DNA of 64,000 nucleotides from the human T2T-CHM13v2.0 reference genome, Homo sapiens. The stretch's first letter is position 1. Each line of letters opens with the position of its first letter. Position numbers and translations under genes: made by a program. The stretch is from the NCBI RefSeq assembly GCF_009914755.1, contig NC_060935.1; one strand, given 5' to 3'. Positions 1,400 to 60,704 of this stretch are shown here, piece by piece. A model generated the notes under the pieces. That model was not told the origin of the DNA. It saw only the letters and a list, made by a program, of their open reading frames with translations, and did no database searches.

Positions 1400-5295
<3,896 letters not shown>

Positions 5296-45065: not shown

Positions 45066-45217
45066 ACTGATTGAAGGAAAGAAAGGGGTGAAAGTGGAAA
45101 ACAGACCTTTCCTCTCAAAACTCATCTTCTTCAATGTCTCTGAACATGACTATGGGAACTACACTTGCGTGGCCTCCAACAAGCTGGGCCACACCAATGC
45201 CAGCATCATGCTATTTG
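45066..45217 (+). CDS. NTM: Neurotrimin coding exon (second half of Ig3), 152 nt, phase 2/1
   Basis: Long polypyrimidine tract, ctcag| acceptor, TTTG|gtgaga donor. Encodes (R)[50 protein letters not shown], with sequons NVS, NYT and NAS. Confidence 0.98.
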
Positions 45218-45234: not shown

Positions 45235-48168
45235 GCTGGGCAAGAAGAGGGGAGAGGGTGCAGAACGGGAGAGCTGGGTGGGAGGGCCCCTCAAGGCCAG
45301 GGTCAGAGGTTAGCAGGGTATCAGTGGACATGGAGAGGGAGGAAAAAAAAGAGAGAGACACAGAAAGAAATGGAGAGAGAGGGACAGAGAGACAGGGAGG
45401 AGGCAGACAGAAAGAGAAAGAACAAGAGATACAGTTTACATGTATACAAAGTAGTATATGTATAGTACATGTATAAAAGTAGATCTCAGAAGTGGGAAAA
45501 GGAAAATGAAAAAGAATGTTCATGTTTCATTCTATAATGGAAAAGATCCCGAGATAGGAGAAAAATACTTTGGAATGCCAAAAATGACATTTGATTTTTT
45601 TTTTCTCAGTGATGATGGCTCCTAAGCTGACTGTGGGAATCATAATTGGGTAAAATAGTCAAGAACTCAGAGGGGAATGTTTGCTATTTCAGTCTTTGCT
45701 TACTGGCTTAGTGTAAAATTTTCCTTTTTCCAAAACTGTCTCCAGTCGCTGGGACATGAAGAGCCCCACCTTCGTCACATATCTGGCTACTGTATTGATA
45801 TCAGAAGAAAGTGAGCGAGCTCCCTTGTAAACCCTGATGCCTGCCCCTGCTAGCAGACAGCTGTGCAGACATGAGCCTGCCTTCCTGGTGGTGCCACCAG
45901 GCAGGGCCCTGGGCCTCTCATGATGGCTCCATCCCTTGATGAACGCAGATTCTCCCTAAAGGCCACAGGATTAAATTCCGGTTGTGTTTTGGGCAAATTC
46001 CTTCATACCCCATCAAGTTCTTTGAGCTTGAGATTTTTCAAACCTGTCTCCCCAATCCCTCATGTTAACAAGCACTCTTGAATGTGATGGGGAAGTAAGG
46101 GGAGGCATTTGACAGATAATTTGCAAGAACACAAATTCCTTATATTCTGAGAACTTTGGGATAATCCCATGGCCCAGCCATGTGCCCTCGGTGCTAGCGT
46201 ATGTGGCTTGCTCTGAATCACGAGCCTGCACTGCTTCACCACACGATCTCTGCTCACCCATTACATCCTCCTGCATTCTACCCGGCACAAATAGTAAATC
46301 CCAGCTTTATCTGAGAGAGCTGGGAAGGAGAAAGCCGCCCTTGATCCCCGAGCCAGTGGCTTGGAATGGGCAGAGCTGTGATTTGAGTGATTGATGTGTC
46401 TGGCATCTCTCACACAGGGATGATCATAAGAGCCCCTTGCATTTTTCATGCCTTTTTGCCTTTTTGGCAGGCGTCTGTCTGCATGAACAGAGACCAGGAT
46501 TAGGAAGGAACAGACCCCTCCTTCCCTTGCTTTGCAAATCTAAATCTAAGGCTCCCCCTCAGTTTCCCATTAACCCAAGTCCTGCTCTCCACCCACAGCA
46601 CTCCTCATCCTCACAGGGGTAGTCTTCCCCCCGCCACCCCCCACTTTGACCTACTCTCTCCTGACTTGGTTGCATGAAATGGTTCAGCCATTGGCTTTAT
46701 CATGATTGTATACTTCCCCGGCTTCTTCTCCTTAAGCCATCTCAGGATGAGAATAGGGAGAAGCAGCAAACAAACAGTTCTCGTAAGAGTTGAATAGATG
46801 ACATTTATGACAAGGAAAGCAGTGAAGTGCAGGTCATAAATATGCTCTTTTCAGCAGGCACACATGTAGCAATTACAATGTCTACTTCCCATGCCCCCCA
46901 CCCTATGGGTCTATCAATCAGCATCTGCCCTGTGCCTCCTTTGGGACGTTTCTACCATTGCCAGCTCTCTGGCGTCCAGGGTTTTCTAAAAAGGACATGG
47001 AAAAGTAGTAGTATGTATTCAAATATGTTTAGAAAGAGTGGGTCACACCAAGATGAGTGGGGTACATGTGGGGATGTTCTTTAATGCCAGAAGTCCCGGA
47101 GCCTTAACATGCTAAATCTCTAGGGGAGAAAAAGTTTGCAGGATGTTTCAATCAGAAACCAATTTAATTTGTTAGCTTCAGTTGAGAGATCATTCCTGAG
47201 GAGTCCATCACTAGCAATGCTGCCTGGGTAACATAATTCTGTGGAGCTCGCAAACCCCATTCCTGTGTGAGATGAGTATTTGCAGCCAATAGTTCGGATG
47301 TTATTGTGGCTCCTAGGTTCATTATTGAGGCTCACCATCAATGAGGTCTTTTGACAAATATGAATTTGTTTGTTTGTTAGGGAATTTTCCATGTCAGTTT
47401 CCATTAAAAGCCAACAAGCACACTTGGGGCAGGTTGGAAAGCAGCATGTACTTTTTGCGAATATACAAACTTCTTGATGAAGTTAGAAAGGCAGCAAAAT
47501 TATCATCATTTTGCCACCAACTTGTGCATAAACTGCACGCTCTCTCCAAGTGGCCTAGACGTTGAGAAGTGAGGAATTCTGGTGCAAGAGACCATAGTCG
47601 GCGGTCTGGGAATACTTAAGCCAAACGGGAGCAGGTTAGTCCTTCCCATCACAAGCACCTGATCGCTAAGGTGACAGGGCTTGCAGGGGCCTCTGAGAGT
47701 TCTGCTCCCGCACTCCTGAATCACAGTGCTCTGGGGAGCTCGTTCGTTCCTACCGTGGTGCCAGGGGCAAAAATTTCTGAATTTGGTGTCCTAAGATGAA
47801 ACGATGGGGGTGGGGAAGTGGGAAACAAGTCTCATCTGGAAGGAAACTTTAGTCCTTTGTTATCCAGTTAGTAGCATGGCTCAGCATGAGCTAAGAGTGA
47901 ATCCAACTGCACCAGAATATGTATGGCGTAACCAGCTCCCTGCCTTCCCAGTCACGGCATTCAATATGGAAACATAAAGCATGTCAGCGTTTCTCTTGCC
48001 GCACCTTGTCCTACGCCTTTGGTTTCTGTCTTCCTTTTTTTTATATAATCCCCCAGAAATGTCTGTGAAAGGCAGTATACAAACTATATATGACAAATAT
48101 ATAGCACTGTATATAATATATGTGTTTGTTCTCATTTTTCTCTCCTGTGTGTCCCTCAACCGATTTAG

Positions 48169-48204: not shown

Positions 48205-49650
48205 GTCAGTATCTTCCTTGCTTTATGTTTTGTCTCCCCTTCCCTCTATCCCAGAGGCCCCCTTCCCCTGCTGTGCATTACCCGAAGCACTTGTCTGTAA
48301 AGTGTCTTAGAGGATGTGGAAGGCTATTGAAGGAGGTGATTGATTGGGAGCCAGGGAGACTTCAAGCTCCCTTTGCTTTGCTCATCCCTTGCTCTCACTC
48401 CCCCAGGAGGGCTGGGAAGGGGAAAGAAAGAAAGAAAAGTATCGTTAAATTCTCAATGCCCAGGGATCAGCACAAAGGCAAAGGGTAGAGAGTGAGTCTG
48501 GGACCCATAGGAAGACTACTTCAACTGACTGAGCAGTTTTCATAAAAAGGGTCTTATTGATGACCCCTCAGCAGCAGAGTCAGACACCAAGCACATGATA
48601 ATTCAGATATTCTGTCAAACGCATCAACTGGCTCATGAGGTTCTCCAAAGGAGGAGGATAGGCATGGCACTGCATGAGTGGTTGCCAATACACAGTGATT
48701 TCTAGGGGTGCCACTGGGGTCCAGGTTAGGGCCTGACGTCCAGTAGCTCTTTGGTCTTGGGTGACTCACTAAGCCTCATTTAGACTCAATTTCCTCTTCT
48801 TTACAATACAGTTGATCTACCTTATCCACCGTACAGAGTTGTTCCAACAGTCAATGGAGAATGCATGTTACAAAGGCTTTGAAAACTGTGAGGTGCATGT
48901 TGAATCTCCAGGCATAAACTGAAAGACAAGGATGCCCCTCAGTGGAACATCATAGGGGGTCCTTCACTCATTTCTCAGCCCCTTCTCCACAGTCCCTTTA
49001 CATCCTCTTCCACTTCCAGTCCTCCCCTGCAAATATCTCCCGCGTCTCTTGCCTGTCTTTGCACATCCCTTCCAATTTTCTCACTAGCCTAGAGTGAGTG
49101 ACTCATTAAGACTATGACTATGACTAAGCATCCAAGCAAGCAGTGGAATAAAATGGGTGCCGCGTGCACTGCTGTCACCCTGAGGACAGTGCTGACCACA
49201 GCAGTAGCCTTTCAGGAAGGCAGCTGTGAAGCCAGGGAGGGGAATGCTTCTCCCACCTTCCATCCCAATCCCCTGACCTCCTCTCCCCACCTCACCCCAC
49301 CCTGTTCATCCCCTCACATTCTGGCCTTGCAAACTGTCATCAGAGGATGGCTGTAGACTTTGGAGGTGGAGGGGGAGATGAAAAGAAATGCATTACATGG
49401 GAAGGTGCATGACAGATGAAAAAAAGTACCTTTTTATCATGGAAAGAGTGAGGGCTGCATTACTCACTTTAGTGATGTACAGCACCACAGCGATGAGCCA
49501 CAAGCAAGAAAATGAAACAAAGAAATAGAAAAAGTGAAGTCAATAGACTTATTCAGATTCAACCTATGATTCAACTTACGTTTATTGAACCTCCATGTGA
49601 CTGTATTCACAGACGTAAAATAGAGAGCAGTAGAAAAGTGGCTAACAGCT

Positions 49651-50677
49651 GAGGAGCCAAGATGGCCGAATAGGAACAGCTCCAGTCTACAGCTCCCAGT
49701 GTGAGCGACGCAAAAGACAGGTGATTTCTGCATTTCCAACTGAGGTACCGGGTTCATCTCACTGGGGAGTGCCAGACAGTAGGTGCAGGACAGTGGGTGC
49801 AGCTCACCGTGTGCGAGCCGAAGCATGGCAAGGCATCGCCTTACCTGGGAAGCACAAGGGGTCAGGGAATTCCCTTTCCTAGTCAAAGAAAGCAGTGACC
49901 GTCGGCACCTGGAAAATCGAGTCACTCCCACCCTAATACTGTGCTTTTCCAACGGGCTTAAAAAACGGCACACCAAGAGATTATATCCCACACCTGGCTT
50001 GGAGGGTCCTACACCCACGGAGTCTCACTCATTGCTGGCACAGCAGTCCGAAATCAAACTGCAAGGCAGCAGCAAGGCTGGGGGAGGGGCGCCTGCCATT
50101 GCCTAGTTAGTTGTTTGATTAGGTAAAGCAGCTGGGAAGCACGAACTGGGTGGAGCCCACCACAGCTCCAGGAGGCCTGCCTGCCTCTGTAGGCTCCACC
50201 TCTGGGGGCAGAGCACAGACACAAAAGACAGCAGTAACCTCTGCAGACTTAAATGTCCCTCTCAGACAGCTTTGAAGAGAGCAGTGGTTCTCCCAGCATG
50301 CAGCTGGAGATCTGAGAACAGGCAGACTGCCTCCTCCAGTGGGTCCCTGACCCCCGAGTAGCCTAACGGGAGGCACCCCCCAGTAGGGGCAGACTGACAC
50401 CTCACACAGCCGGGTACTCCTCTGAGACAAACTTCCAGAGGAACAATCAGGCAGCAGCATCAGTGGTTCACCAATATCCCCTGTTCTGCAGCCTCCGCTG
50501 CTGATACCCAGGCAAACAGGGTCTGGAGTGGACCTCTAGCAAACTCCAACAGACCTGCAGATGAGGGTCCTGTCTGTTACAAGGAAAACTAACAAACAGA
50601 AAGGACATCCACACCAAAAACCAATCAGTACATCACCATCATCAAAGACCAAAGGTAGATAAAACCACAAAGATGGG
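49651..50677 (+). promoter_or_regulatory. First (older-type) L1 5'UTR internal promoter, retaining the ~129-bp segment
   Basis: YY1 motif CAAGATGGCCG at 49658-49668. Extra 127 bp at 50421-50547 relative to the second UTR. Ends at ORF1 start context ACCACAAAGATGGG (ATG at 50673). Confidence 0.93.
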
Positions 50678-50687
50678 ATAAAAGCCG

Positions 50688-51582
50688 CAAGATGGCTGAA
50701 TAGGAACAGCTCTGGTCTACAGCTCCCAGCCTGAGCGACGCAGAAGATGGGTGATTTCTGCATTTCCATCTGAGGTACTGGGTTCATCTCATTAAGGAGT
50801 GCCAGACAGTGGGTGCAGGTCAGTGGGTGCACGCACCATGCGCGAGCCAAAGCAGGGCGAGGCATTGCCTCACTCGGGAAGTGCAAGGGATCAGGGAGTT
50901 CCCTTTCCTAATCAAAGAAAAGGGTGACGGATGGCACCTGGAAAATCGGGTCACTCCCACCCGAATACTGCGCTTTTCCGACGGGCTTAAAAAACGGCGC
51001 ACCATGAGATTATATCCCCCAGCTGGCTCGGAGGGTCCTACCCCACGGAGTCTCGCTGATTGCTAGCACAGCAGTCTGACATCAAACTGCAAGGTGGCAG
51101 TGAGGCTGGGGGAGGGGTGCCCGCCATTGCCCAGGCTTGCTTAGGTAAACAAAGCAGCCAGAAAGCTCGAACTGGGTGGAGCCCACCACAGCTCAAGGAG
51201 GCCTGCCTGCCTCTGTAGGCTCCACCTCTGGGGGCAGGGCACAGACAAACAAAAAGACAGCAGTAACCTCTGCAGACTTAAATGTCCCTGTCTGACAGCT
51301 TTGAAGAGAGCAGTGGTTCTCCCAGTACGCAGCTGGTGATCTGAGAACGGGCAGACTGCCTCCTCAAGTGGGTCCCTGACCCCTGACCCCCGAGCAGCCT
51401 AACTGGGAGGCACCCCCCAGCAGGGCCACACTGACACCTCACACTGCAGGGTACTCCAACAGACCTGCAGCTGAGGGTCCTGTCTGTTAGAAGGAAAACT
51501 AACAAACAGAAAGGACATCCACACCAAAAACCCATCTGTACATCACCATCATCAAAGACCAAAAGTAGATAAAACCACAAAG
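50688..51582 (+). promoter_or_regulatory. Second (younger-type) L1 5'UTR carrying the ~129-bp deletion
   Basis: Restarts with CAAGATGGCTGAATAGGAACAGC. Deletion junction GGGTACTCC|AACAGACC at 51457/51458. Has the duplicated CCCTGACCCCTGACCCCC motif; the first UTR has a single copy. Confidence 0.93.
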
Positions 51583-52601
51583 ATGGGGAAAAAACAGAAC
51601 AGAAAAACTGGAAACTCTAAAAAGCTGAGCGCCTCTCCTCCTCCAAAGGAATGCAGCTCCTCACCAGCAACTGAACAAAGCTGGACAGAGAATGACTTTG
51701 ACGAGCTGAGAGAAGACAGCTTCAGACAATCAAATTGCTCTGAGCTACGGGAGGACATTTCAAACCAAAGGCAAAGAAGTTGAAAACTTTGAAAAAAATT
51801 TAGAAGCATGTATAACTAGAATAACCAATACAGAGAAGTGCTTAAAGGAGCTGATGGAGGTGAAAACCAAGGCTCGAGAACTACGTGAAGAATGCAGAAG
51901 CCTCAGGAGCCGATGTGATCAACTGGAAGAAAGGGTATCAGCAATGGAAGATGAAATGAATGAAATGAAGCGAGAAGGAAAGTTTAGAGAAAAAAAGAAT
52001 AAAAAGAAACCAGCAAAGCCTCCAAGAAATATGGGACTATGTGAAAAGACCAAATCTACCTCTGATTGGTGTACCTGAAAGTGATGGGAAGAATGGAACC
52101 AAGTTGGAAAACATTCTGCAGAATATTATCCAGGAGAATTTCCCCAATCTAGCAAGGCAGGCCAACATTCAGATTCAGGAAATACAGAGAATGCCACAAA
52201 GATACTCCTCGAGAAGAGCAACTCCAAGACACATAATTGTCAGATTCACCAAAGTTGAAATGAAGGAAAAAATGTTAAGGGCAGCCAGAGAGAAAGGTCG
52301 GGTTACCCTCAAAGGGAAGCCCATCAGACTAACAGCGGATCTCTCGGCAGAAACCCTACAAGCCAGAAGAGAGTGGGGGCCAATATTCAACATTCTTAAA
52401 GAAAAGAATTTTCAACCCAGAATTTCATATCCAGCCAAACTAAGCTTCATAAGTGAAGGAGAAATAAAATACTTTACAGACAAGCAAATGCTGAGAGATT
52501 TTGTCACCACCAGGCCTGCCCTAAAAGAGCTCCTGAAGGAAGTGCTAAACATGGAAAGGAACAACTGGTACCATCCACTGCAAAAACAGGCCAAAATGTA
52601 A
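51583..52601 (+). pseudogene. L1 ORF1p, disrupted
   Basis: MGKKQNRKTGNSK... through ...HPLQKQAKM*, split over three ORF-track frames by frameshifts near 51760 and 51990. Confidence 0.95.
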
Positions 52602-52649
52602 AGACCATCGAGACTAGGAAGAAACTGCATCAACTAACGAGCAAAATAA

Positions 52650-56481
<3,832 letters not shown>

Positions 56482-58294
56482 ACAATGAGAACACATGGAC
56501 ACAGGAAGGGGAACATCACACACTGGGGACTGTTGTGGGGTGGGGGGACGGGGGAGGGATAGCATTAGGATATATACCTAATGCTAAATGACGAGTTAAT
56601 GGGTGCAGCACACCAACATGTCACATGTATACATATGTAACAAACCTGCACATTGTGCACATGTACCCTAAAACTTAAAGTAAAATAATAATAAAATAAA
56701 AAATAAAAAAAGTGGCTAACATACAGTATCAGGGAAGTGAGAGAGCCTAGAGCATGGACATGCATTGCTATGGCTATGCTTTCAGAAGGACCGAGCTAGT
56801 TCTGACCACTGAGATCTTCATTCTCAGAGGAAATTGGAGCTTTTGAAACTCAGGTAGGGGTTTTTAACAAGAGAGTATTTAACAGAAGGTGTACTCAACT
56901 CACAGAGAGAACACCATCCCATAGCAAAGTCAATTGCAGGAAAACCAACCAGAAACACAAATTGAAAGCAAACAGGTTACTTTACCTGGTCACTGAGCAG
57001 GGGCAAGGAGCCCCCATCTGCTGAGACAAAGCTGGGCTGCTCACTTCTCTCCTGTGAACTGATGACTCTGGTTGGAAGGCTTTCTGTGCCAACTTGCTAC
57101 TCTGATTCTTCGGATGTGCTCAGCCCCTCATCTCAGCAACCTTCTTGGGTGTAGGAGAATGGGTCAGCGAAGAAGACTGTGGATATCTAAAACGTTATGA
57201 CAGTTGGATTAGTACAGTCTTCAGTAGAGCTGCTAGACTCTTGTACAATGAGAAATTATTTAGAGAAAACAGCCCTTGCACCTGGGCTCATTTACTGCAC
57301 TGATGTGTTCATTCCCCCGCCTCCTTTGCTAGTCTTCGATACAATAGAGAGCTATGTATTTTCTCAGGAAATACGCTCCAAGTTATACTTACCTTACCTC
57401 AGAAATACCAGGAAAGATTTATATGAATGCATGGATTTCCACTGACAGAGTACACTTGGCTTTAAGAGAAGTTCAAAGCTATTTTGCTAACCAATATCTG
57501 GATGGACTAGAAGTATTTTGATAAGAGAATTTCATTCTTCCTCAGCATTTTCTGCCACCATTGAAGTATTTTACTGCTTCCCTTCTGCAAACAAAACAGA
57601 TTGCATGTCACCTCTCCTATTAATATTTGGTGGTGCAGGACTCTCACGGTGATAAATAAGGACTCAAGGATGTTCCACCATCCCTCACTGGGCTTCTGCA
57701 CAGTAAACTGTACTCAGGCCACTGTGCAAACTCAGCGGCTCCGTGGCTGTTCATTTTCCACCCACTGGTCCTTTGTCTTTTATCTCCTGGGCATTAAGTC
57801 AGATTTGATGGTATCAGTGGGCTGGTAAAGGTTGACTGATTAATGTCTGTAAACCTCAAAGTGACCATCAAAGCAATTTATTAAAGAATGGGGACTAAAG
57901 TAAACTCTGTATATCAGAAGGAAACAATTGCAGCAGAAGAGATTATTAGTTCTTCCCTGCAGAGGATTAAAGACAGTTAATTAGGCCAAGTCATCCAGTG
58001 GTTAAGCATTTCTATGGTATATGTGTGTCTAGATAACAGAAAGCACAAAAGAAAGAAAATTCCCTCACCCTCTTGCTAGAAGGTTTGTATATCCGTCTTC
58101 ACATGAAACCAGCCCTCCTCTGCCCACTAGAGCCAGACAACAGCCCTTTGCTTATCTGGACACTCGGATTCAGCCAAACTGGCTTTGCTGGCAAAAATAT
58201 AACTTTCTGGATTGAGCAGACATTGAATATTGACTTAGAGATGGGATGGGAGGGTTCTTTTTACTGTTGTTTTCTTCTTGTTGTATTTTCTGTC

Positions 58295-60671: not shown

Positions 60672-60704
60672 AAGTGAAAACTACAGCCCTGACCCCTTGG
60701 AAAG
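60672..60704 (+). CDS. NTM: Alternative 33-nt stalk microexon (E)VKTTALTPWK, phase 1/1
   Basis: Branch-like CCTTAAC at 60639-60645, U-rich tract, tag| acceptor and AAAG|gtttgt donor. Frame-preserving; I recognise the peptide from an NTM isoform. Confidence 0.92.

What the first reader, a model, noticed from the sequence alone, without database searches (positions are those of the whole stretch)
49634..51582. LINE-1 with two complete tandem 5'UTR promoters inside a single target-site duplication
Seen: one 14-bp TSD (AAAAGTGGCTAACA) brackets 7.06 kb, about 1 kb longer than a normal full-length L1. The 5'UTR runs completely to the ORF1 ATG (50673). After a short junction (GATGGGATAAAAGCCG) a second 5'UTR begins (CAAGATGGCTGAATAGG, 50688) and leads to the real ORF1 at 51583. 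The two UTRs are not a local tandem duplication: they differ by a 127-bp indel, a CCCTGAC duplication and many substitutions. Inference, two models: (a) a younger L1 inserted at the ORF1 start of an older resident L1 and the two bodies then recombined; (b) a source element transcribed from an upstream older UTR retrotransposed as one unit, i.e. promoter capture, the process thought to underlie L1 5'UTR replacement.
Basis: partly seen in the sequence, partly recalled or inferred. Interest (0 to 1): 0.82.

Follow-up and report, generated by a model that had tools for sequence, protein, structure and literature searches.

The report
Nested LINE-1 pair collapsed by recombination
An old LINE-1 in an NTM intron was hit at the start of its first gene by a younger LINE-1, and the two copies most likely recombined later, leaving two promoters in a row inside one target-site duplication; this is an ordinary decay product, not a case of promoter capture.

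Summary
A perfect 14-bp duplication (49634-49647 and 56708-56721) brackets 7,060 bp with two full LINE-1 5'UTRs in tandem.

The two UTRs belong to different L1PA generations:
- UTR_A (49648-50672) keeps the ~127-129-bp ZNF93-site segment.
- UTR_B (50688-51582) lacks it.

The deciding result comes from sites that separate four long-UTR ("A") from four short-UTR ("B") full-length genomic L1s.
- From UTR_B to 56247 the element is B-type at 85 of 93 sites.
- From 56254 to the poly(A) tail it is A-type at 15 of 16 sites (Fisher p = 1e-12).

So both outer ends are old and the inside is young.

Supporting results:
- A chr20 locus shows the same nesting still unrecombined.
- The junction is unique in T2T-CHM13.
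- None of the 14 informative closest 3' relatives shares the mosaic.

Promoter capture (model b) is not supported. Both ORFs are broken. Interest is low.

The parts
49634..49647 (+). Left copy of the 14-bp target-site duplication of the outer (old) L1
   Evidence: Exact match to 56708-56721. Only two hits in the window with up to 1 mismatch; 0.06 expected by chance.
49648..50672 (+). UTR_A: the 5'UTR of the old, long-UTR (A-type) L1PA element. It keeps the ~127-129-bp segment that was lost in late L1PA3 and younger subfamilies.
   Evidence: Best genomic matches are 91-92% over the full length. A-type at 23 of 31 substitution sites (5 B, 3 other) and at all three indel characters. It differs from the A-panel majority at 44 of 987 sites, like free-standing A-type copies at 4.0-4.4%.
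50673..50687 (+). Start of the old ORF1 (ATGGGA...) and the junction with the nested element. The exact breakpoint is ambiguous within about 10 nt.
   Evidence: A-type copies read ATGGGAAAAAAACAG here. The window reads ATGGGATAAAAGCCG, which is 3 of 15 different. Part of this may therefore be filler, or the truncated 5' end of the young element. The target was the A-rich stretch at codons 2-5.
50688..51582 (+). UTR_B: the 5'UTR of the younger, short-UTR (B-type) L1. About 7-11 nt are missing or altered at its very 5' end.
   Evidence: Best genomic matches are 95-96% over the full length. B-type at 29 of 31 substitution sites. It differs from the B-panel majority at 22 of 885 sites.
51583..52601 (+). 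ORF1 of the young element, broken
   Evidence: Translation reads MGKKQNRKTGNSK... and then loses frame near codon 60, with many stops after that. B-type at the diagnostic sites.
52665..56247 (+). ORF2 of the young element, broken into several open pieces
   Evidence: The open pieces are 388, 183, 107, 103 and 200 aa. B-type at nearly all diagnostic sites. It differs from the B-panel majority by 1.2-1.5%.
56248..56285 (+). Crossover interval between the young and the old L1 body. The conservative interval is 55606-56285.
   Evidence: The last B-state site is 56247. The first A-state site is 56254, and the first that is unambiguous is 56286. Some near-A-type copies already carry the B state at 55777, 55878, 56013 and 56247, which gives the wider bound.
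56286..56707 (+). 3' end of the old A-type L1: the last ~200 nt of ORF2, the 3'UTR and a degenerate A-rich tail
   Evidence: From 56254 on, 15 of 16 diagnostic sites are A-type. The block differs from the A-panel majority at 9 of 432 sites and from the B-panel majority at 23 of 430. The tail is read.
56708..56721 (+). Right copy of the 14-bp target-site duplication

Best explanation
Three ordinary events in series produced the structure.

1. An older, long-UTR L1PA element inserted by target-primed reverse transcription into an NTM intron, in the sense orientation. This made the 14-bp duplication. I call this element A-type: early L1PA3 or L1PA4 class.
2. Later, a younger short-UTR L1 inserted in the same orientation into the A-rich stretch at codons 2-5 of the old ORF1. 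I call it B-type: late L1PA3 or L1PA2 class, ~6.02 kb. The result was an array of about 12.2 kb: old UTR, whole young L1, then the old ORF1 to poly(A).
3. Unequal homologous recombination between the two direct-repeat bodies, which are about 94.5% alike, then crossed over near the 3' end at 56248-56285. It deleted one repeat period of about 5.1 kb: the young 3' end with its tail and its downstream duplication, plus the old ORF1 and most of the old ORF2.

What remains is old UTR, young UTR, young ORF1 and ORF2, old 3' end and tail, all inside the old duplication.

Shown: the structure, the subfamily mosaic, the uniqueness of the junction, and the existence of an unrecombined analogue. Inferred: the order of the events, and that step 3 was a separate event. 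The element is dead, with both ORFs broken.
For: - Mosaic. At sites where at least 3 of 4 A-type copies (L042-L045) differ from at least 3 of 4 B-type copies (L040, L046-L048), the window is B at 85, A at 6 and other at 2 of 93 sites from 50685 to 56247. It is A at 15 and B at 1 of 16 sites from 56254 to 56690. Fisher p = 1.1e-12. With strict 4/4 sites the counts are 48 B, 2 A and 1 other of 51, against 11 A of 11.
- Divergence switch. The 3' block differs from the A-panel majority by 2.1% and from the B-panel majority by 5.35%. The four segments before it are 1.2-2.5% from B and 2.2-5.8% from A.
- Not a natural intermediate subfamily. The seven closest genomic relatives of 54700-56690 all carry the derived state at 56286 and 56522, where the window is ancestral. 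The window carries late-derived states at 54894, 55534 and 55878 that most of them lack.
- No copy shares the mosaic. Of the ten closest relatives of 55990-56690, seven reach far enough upstream to judge, and none has it.
- The three best whole-body matches stop at query position 4717, which is window 56299.
- UTR_A is older than UTR_B. Differences from the majority of their own panels are 44 of 987 against 22 of 885 sites (p = 0.024). For non-CpG changes they are 31 against 10 (p = 0.004). Best genomic matches are 91-92% for UTR_A and 95-96% for UTR_B.
- The intermediate stage exists elsewhere. At chr20 (loci L055 + L002) an old L1 5'UTR is followed by a full-length younger L1. The old L1 then resumes at its ORF1 start, and a ~17-nt duplication flanks the nested copy.
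- L1 recombination-associated deletions are a described class, with 73 human-specific cases cited in passages of PMC3362811.
Against: - No outgroup genome could be examined. Neither the pre-deletion state nor the order of the events is observed directly.
- The 15 nt after the old ATG differ from the A-type sequence at 3 positions. That is more than the ~4.5% seen in UTR_A, so the 5' junction is not a clean target-site copy.
- The 3' block's difference from its panel majority (9 of 432) is not significantly higher than that of the young ORF2 (48 of 3,616; p = 0.20). The greater age of the 3' block itself is not shown; only its type is.
- The reference panels are small, at 4 + 4 full-length copies. 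They were chosen by similarity to the two UTRs.
- Subfamily names come from no classifier.
- Genome searches score only the best 40 candidates, so 'unique' is a bounded statement.
Confidence: 0.8

Rival explanations
1. One-step replacement. A young L1 RNA was reverse-transcribed from a break inside the 3' part of the old L1, primed by homology instead of poly(A). The cDNA end was then joined at the old ORF1 start. This would delete the old body in the same event, as an insertion-mediated deletion or an endonuclease-independent type of event.
For: It gives the same final structure, with old ends and a young interior. It would also explain why the 5' junction does not look like a clean target-site copy. 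L1 insertion-mediated deletions are a described class (passages of PMC3362811).
Against: It needs a ~5-kb target deletion whose two ends both fall inside the same old L1, and internal priming exactly in register. The two-step path uses only common events, and its intermediate is seen at chr20. No call separates the two paths directly.
Confidence: 0.08
2. Unit retrotransposition, or promoter capture. The nested and already recombined composite sat at another locus. It was transcribed from the old upstream UTR and inserted here as one 7.06-kb copy, which made the 14-bp duplication.
For: A single perfect duplication and a single A-rich tail bracket everything. UTR_A begins at a near-complete L1 5' end.
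Against: - No second copy of the junction in T2T-CHM13. The 39-mer with up to 3 mismatches hits only the window. Queries of 101 nt and 63 nt found only unrelated junctions.
- None of the 14 informative close 3' relatives has the B-to-A mosaic. 5'-truncated siblings would carry it.
- It needs every event of the best explanation plus one more.
- It needs a promoter that was already decayed to still drive transcription.
Confidence: 0.05
3. Template switching during a single reverse transcription. Copying began on an old-type L1 RNA, switched in register to a young-type RNA about 450 nt in, ran to its 5' end, then jumped to the ORF1 start of an old-type RNA and ran to that 5' end.
For: The junction lies at the very 5' end of the young copy. 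A single duplication brackets everything.
Against: It needs two switches in one event, and both outer pieces must come from the same old type. UTR_A is about as decayed as free-standing A-type copies, so the donor RNA would have come from an already old copy. Nothing positive supports it.
Confidence: 0.03
4. Assembly artefact: a falsely duplicated 5'UTR.
For: None found. Only one assembly could be examined.
Against: The two UTRs differ at 98 of 906 aligned bases and by subfamily-specific indels. The mosaic is biologically coherent. A collapse or duplication error would give near-identical copies.
Confidence: 0.02

Closest known systems
L1 recombination-associated deletion, i.e. unequal homologous recombination between L1 copies (Han et al. 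2008, seen only as cited in passages of PMC3362811)
   Same: It yields a chimeric L1 whose subfamily switches at a homologous position, with loss of the DNA between the two copies.
   Different: Here the two partners are a host L1 and an L1 nested inside it, about 5.1 kb apart. The product therefore keeps two 5'UTRs and the host's duplication. The pre-deletion state was not seen.
Plain nested L1-in-L1 insertion, for example the chr20 locus found here (L055 + L002)
   Same: A younger full-length L1 sits in the same orientation at the ORF1 start of an older L1, giving two tandem 5'UTRs.
   Different: At chr20 the old ORF1 and ORF2 still follow the nested copy, which has its own ~17-nt duplication. 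In the window that part is gone.
L1 5' transduction, or acquisition of a new 5'UTR by the L1PA lineage (recalled from the literature; no paper on it was read here)
   Same: Extra promoter-bearing sequence lies upstream of an L1 inside the flanking duplication.
   Different: No source or sibling locus was found, and the 3' end is of the old type. The extra UTR is therefore host-element DNA left in place, not mobilised sequence.
Loss of the 129-bp ZNF93 site within L1PA3 (passages of PMC7110667)
   Same: The 127-column gap between UTR_A and UTR_B lies where that deletion lies. It separates all 4 A-type from all 4 B-type copies.
   Different: It is only a dating character here. Nothing new about it is shown.

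Membership tests
Full-length LINE-1 (L1PA) insertion by target-primed reverse transcription | Flanking target-site duplication that starts with an A-run, and a 3' A-rich tail | tested here: met
   A 14-bp exact duplication beginning AAAA. An A-rich tail lies directly before the right copy.
Full-length LINE-1 (L1PA) insertion by target-primed reverse transcription | 5'UTR, ORF1, ORF2 and 3'UTR collinear with other genomic L1s | tested here: met
   50688-56703 aligns with L040 at 96.5% with 15 gap positions. It aligns with 7 other full-length copies at 94.4-96.3%. The ORFs are broken.
Nested insertion followed by recombination-associated deletion | Both outer segments are of one (older) type and the inner segment is of another (younger) type | tested here: met
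   UTR_A is A at 23 of 31 sites and at all indel characters. The 3' block is A at 15 of 16 sites. The interior is B at 85 of 93 sites.
Nested insertion followed by recombination-associated deletion | The type switches at a homologous position, with no indel at the crossover | tested here: met
   The alignment is collinear across 56248-56285 with both panels.
Nested insertion followed by recombination-associated deletion | The pre-deletion (nested) state is present in an outgroup or another haplotype | not testable with these tools
   No primate or other human assembly is held. Only an analogous unrecombined locus on chr20 was seen.
5' transduction / promoter capture | A source or sibling locus with the same junction and its own duplication | tested here: not met
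   The junction 39-mer with up to 3 mismatches occurs once in 3.1 Gb. The BLAST-type queries gave no second copy. Only the best 40 candidates are scored in each search.
5' transduction / promoter capture | The mobilised body is of a single type up to the poly(A) tail | tested here: not met
   The 3' block is A-type.
Late L1PA3 / L1PA2-class 5'UTR (UTR_B) against older L1PA 5'UTR (UTR_A) | Absence or presence of the 129-bp ZNF93-site segment | tested here: met
   A 127-column gap in UTR_B and in all 4 B copies. The segment is present in UTR_A and in all 4 A copies. Its meaning is taken from passages of PMC7110667. No repeat-family classifier was available, so the exact subfamily names are not assigned.

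The most novel reading that the evidence does not exclude
The recombined composite was itself transcribed from the old upstream 5'UTR and moved here as one unit. That would make it a natural snapshot of how an L1 lineage can pick up a second, upstream promoter. The evidence does not strictly exclude this, because the source could have been lost or could be absent from CHM13.
Probability: 0.05. Interest if true: 0.7.

Novelty: new member of a known kind. Interest (0 to 1): 0.18.

Why it matters
It matters little beyond annotation. The locus is a clean worked example of how a nested repeat and later recombination can imitate a single odd insertion, with one duplication, one tail and two promoters. 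It also shows that the 3' end of the element settles the question. It warns against reading tandem L1 5'UTRs as promoter capture without checking subfamily states along the whole element. Both ORFs are dead, so no retrotransposition risk follows. Whether the two decayed promoters affect NTM transcription was not tested.

Tried and rejected
- Precise breakpoint idea. A gapped pattern (ORF1-start 10-mer, 0-40 nt, 5'-end 9-mer) gave 6 hits. At first these suggested that many L1s break exactly after ATGG. Inspection showed that 4 of them (L034, L035, L036, L039) are ordinary single-UTR L1s with a chance 10-mer in the flank. One (L038) is not an L1 at all. Only the window is a real hit. I dropped the idea.
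- False junction hit. A 63-nt junction query hit chr11:105.7 Mb across the junction, but this is a normal L1 5' end next to unrelated flank.
- Apparent breaks in the body. Match ends at query positions 2683, 3150 and 3773 looked like breakpoints. Full alignments are collinear there, so they come from the search tool and not from the element. Only the end at 4717 coincides with a real change of type.
- Rfam found nothing in 49000-57500.
- Literature. No paper held at least two of the terms LINE-1, 'tandem 5 UTR', 'two 5 UTRs', 'duplicated 5 UTR' and 'double 5 UTR'. A search on acquisition of a new 5'UTR returned nothing. One search failed on term syntax. Khan et al. 2006 and Han et al. 2008 are not held.
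- Absolute dating was not attempted. Only relative decay is reported.

Full report
**Observation**

The 14-mer AAAAGTGGCTAACA occurs at 49634-49647 and 56708-56721 and nowhere else in the window, even with one mismatch allowed; 0.06 hits are expected by chance. Between the two copies lie 7,060 bp.

From 49648 a LINE-1 5'UTR runs to an ORF1-type ATG at 50673. After ATGGGATAAAAGCCG a second 5'UTR begins at 50688 and leads to an ORF1 ATG at 51583. An A-rich tail ends directly at the right-hand duplication.

The two UTRs share 808 of 906 aligned bases (89.2%). They differ by a 127-column gap, a 7-nt CCCTGAC duplication and a 6-nt indel.

**What the pieces are**

The window's own genome could be searched.
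- UTR_A finds its best relatives at 91-92% identity over its full length.
- UTR_B finds its best relatives at 95-96%.
- The body finds its best relatives at about 97%.
- The last 2 kb find their best relatives at 95-96%.

I fetched four full-length copies whose UTR best matches UTR_A (L042-L045, long UTR, ~6.16 kb, "A-type"). I also fetched four whose UTR best matches UTR_B (L040, L046, L047, L048, short UTR, ~6.03 kb, "B-type").

All four A copies carry the extra ~127-129-nt segment and lack the CCCTGAC duplication. All four B copies show the reverse. These are therefore lineage characters.

Passages of PMC7110667 say that a 129-bp deletion removing the ZNF93 site arose and fixed within L1PA3 in the great-ape ancestor. 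On that basis UTR_A predates the deletion and UTR_B follows it. I had no repeat-family classifier, so I do not assign exact subfamily names. "Early L1PA3/L1PA4-class" and "late L1PA3/L1PA2-class" are inferences.

UTR_B plus the body is collinear with a normal short-UTR L1. L040 aligns to 50688-56703 at 96.5% with 15 gap positions.

ORF1 loses its frame near codon 60. ORF2 is in five open pieces.

**The deciding result**

I took alignment columns where at least 3 of 4 A copies agree on one base and at least 3 of 4 B copies agree on another.

| Stretch | B state | A state | Other | Sites |
|---|---|---|---|---|
| 50685-56247 | 85 | 6 | 2 | 93 |
| 56254-56690 | 1 | 15 | 0 | 16 |

Fisher p = 1.1e-12. 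With strict 4/4 sites the counts are 48 B, 2 A and 1 other upstream, against 11 A of 11 downstream.

Divergence tells the same story. The 3' block is 2.1% from the A-panel majority and 5.35% from the B-panel majority. The four upstream segments are 1.2-2.5% from B and 2.2-5.8% from A.

UTR_A is A-type at 23 of 31 substitution sites (5 B, 3 other) and at all indel characters. UTR_B is B-type at 29 of 31.

So the two ends next to the duplication are old-type and the interior is young-type. That is the topology of a nested insertion.

**Could the 3' block be a natural intermediate subfamily?**

I checked the seven closest genomic relatives of 54700-56690 (L041, L049-L054).
- They show interleaved A and B states, as expected for a lineage that gains changes one at a time.
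- All seven already carry the derived state at 56286 and 56522, where the window is ancestral.
- The window carries late-derived states at 54894, 55534 and 55878 that most of them lack.

This combination does not fit a single line of descent.

I then checked the ten closest relatives of 55990-56690 (L056-L065).
- They are mostly A-type or near it.
- Seven reach far enough upstream to judge, and none has the window's mosaic.
- Some near-A copies are already "B" at 55777, 55878, 56013 and 56247.

The crossover is therefore best placed at 56248-56285 relative to my panel. The conservative interval is 55606-56285.

The three best whole-body matches all end at query position 4717, which is window 56299.

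**Age**

UTR_A differs from the majority of its panel at 44 of 987 sites. That is like free-standing A copies, which show 4.0-4.4%. UTR_B differs at 22 of 885 sites, against 2.0-3.1% for B copies. The difference is significant (p = 0.024; p = 0.004 for non-CpG changes).

The 3' block's 9 of 432 is too small a count to date it separately (p = 0.20 against the young ORF2).

**Is the junction found elsewhere?**

- The 39-mer across the junction, with up to 3 mismatches, occurs once in 3.1 Gb.
- A 101-nt query found one other UTR-to-UTR junction, on chr20, at 81% identity and with a different breakpoint.
- A 63-nt query gave only a false lead.
- These searches score only the best 40 candidates, so uniqueness is a bounded claim.

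**The chr20 locus**

Read on the L1 strand, it has an old L1 5'UTR (77% to the A ruler) up to ATGGG. A 5-nt filler follows, then a complete younger L1 of ~6.17 kb with its tail. The old L1 then resumes at its ORF1 start and runs on for more than 3 kb. A ~17-nt duplication with 2 mismatches flanks the nested copy.

This is the stage that the window's element would have passed through before recombination.

**Mechanism**

The best explanation has three steps: an old L1 insertion, a nested young L1 insertion at the A-rich start of the old ORF1, and unequal homologous recombination between the two direct-repeat bodies. The last step removes one repeat period, about 5.1 kb.

The structure is shown. 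The order of the events, and the separateness of the deletion step, are inferred.

L1 recombination-associated deletions are a described class, with 73 human-specific cases cited in passages of PMC3362811. The original paper is not held.

**Weak points**

- The 15 nt after the old ATG differ from the A-type sequence at 3 positions. The 5' junction is therefore not a clean target-site copy, and the exact breakpoint is ambiguous within about 10 nt.
- A one-step, homology-primed replacement would leave the same product.
- Unit retrotransposition of an already recombined composite cannot be strictly excluded, but it needs an extra event and has no sibling or source copy.
- A double template switch is contrived.
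- An assembly artefact does not fit two UTRs that differ by about 11% and by subfamily-specific indels.

**Verdict**

This is a new instance of a known kind of repeat decay and is of low interest.

The decisive test is the orthologous site in other apes, which these tools cannot reach.

I found no paper on tandem or double L1 5'UTRs with the terms. Many subscription papers are not held, so this is not proof that none exists.

Noticed in passing
L055 + L002 (G000:C20:25776000-25786882, minus strand): An unrecombined nested pair. An old L1 5'UTR comes first, then a full-length younger long-UTR L1 with a 5-nt filler at its 5' end. The old L1 then continues from its ORF1 start. The nested copy is flanked by a ~17-nt duplication with 2 mismatches. 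The insertion point lies within about 20 nt of the window's. The search could only find junctions at that place, so no hotspot can be claimed.
   Followed up: partly
window 48713-49912: The hub's table lists a RefSeq 'enhancer' that spans the left flank, the left target-site duplication and the first 265 nt of UTR_A. The annotated activity may come from the old L1 promoter region. Not examined.
   Followed up: no
L034, L035, L036, L039 (chr2, chr4, chr6, chrX): Four ordinary full-length L1s have the 10-mer ACAAAGATGG within 40 nt upstream of their 5' end. A fifth hit, L038, is not an L1. The reversed control pattern gave 0 hits. By my rough estimate, which no call computed, this is somewhat more than chance would give. 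It may reflect A-rich target-site duplications.
   Followed up: partly
window 51583-56690, as query: Many genome matches end at query positions 2683, 3150 or 3773, although full alignments are collinear there. This looks like a property of the search tool and not of the element.
   Followed up: partly
window 49648-56707: The composite lies in the sense orientation in the NTM intron between the exons at 45066-45217 and 60672-60704 (hub table). Alternative NTM exons end at 48116 and 48204, just upstream. Any effect on NTM transcripts was not examined.
   Followed up: no
L047 (G000:C2:16260900-16267200): This B-type reference copy lacks about 590 nt, corresponding to window 52314-52905. That is why some diagnostic sites rest on 3 B copies.
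   Followed up: no
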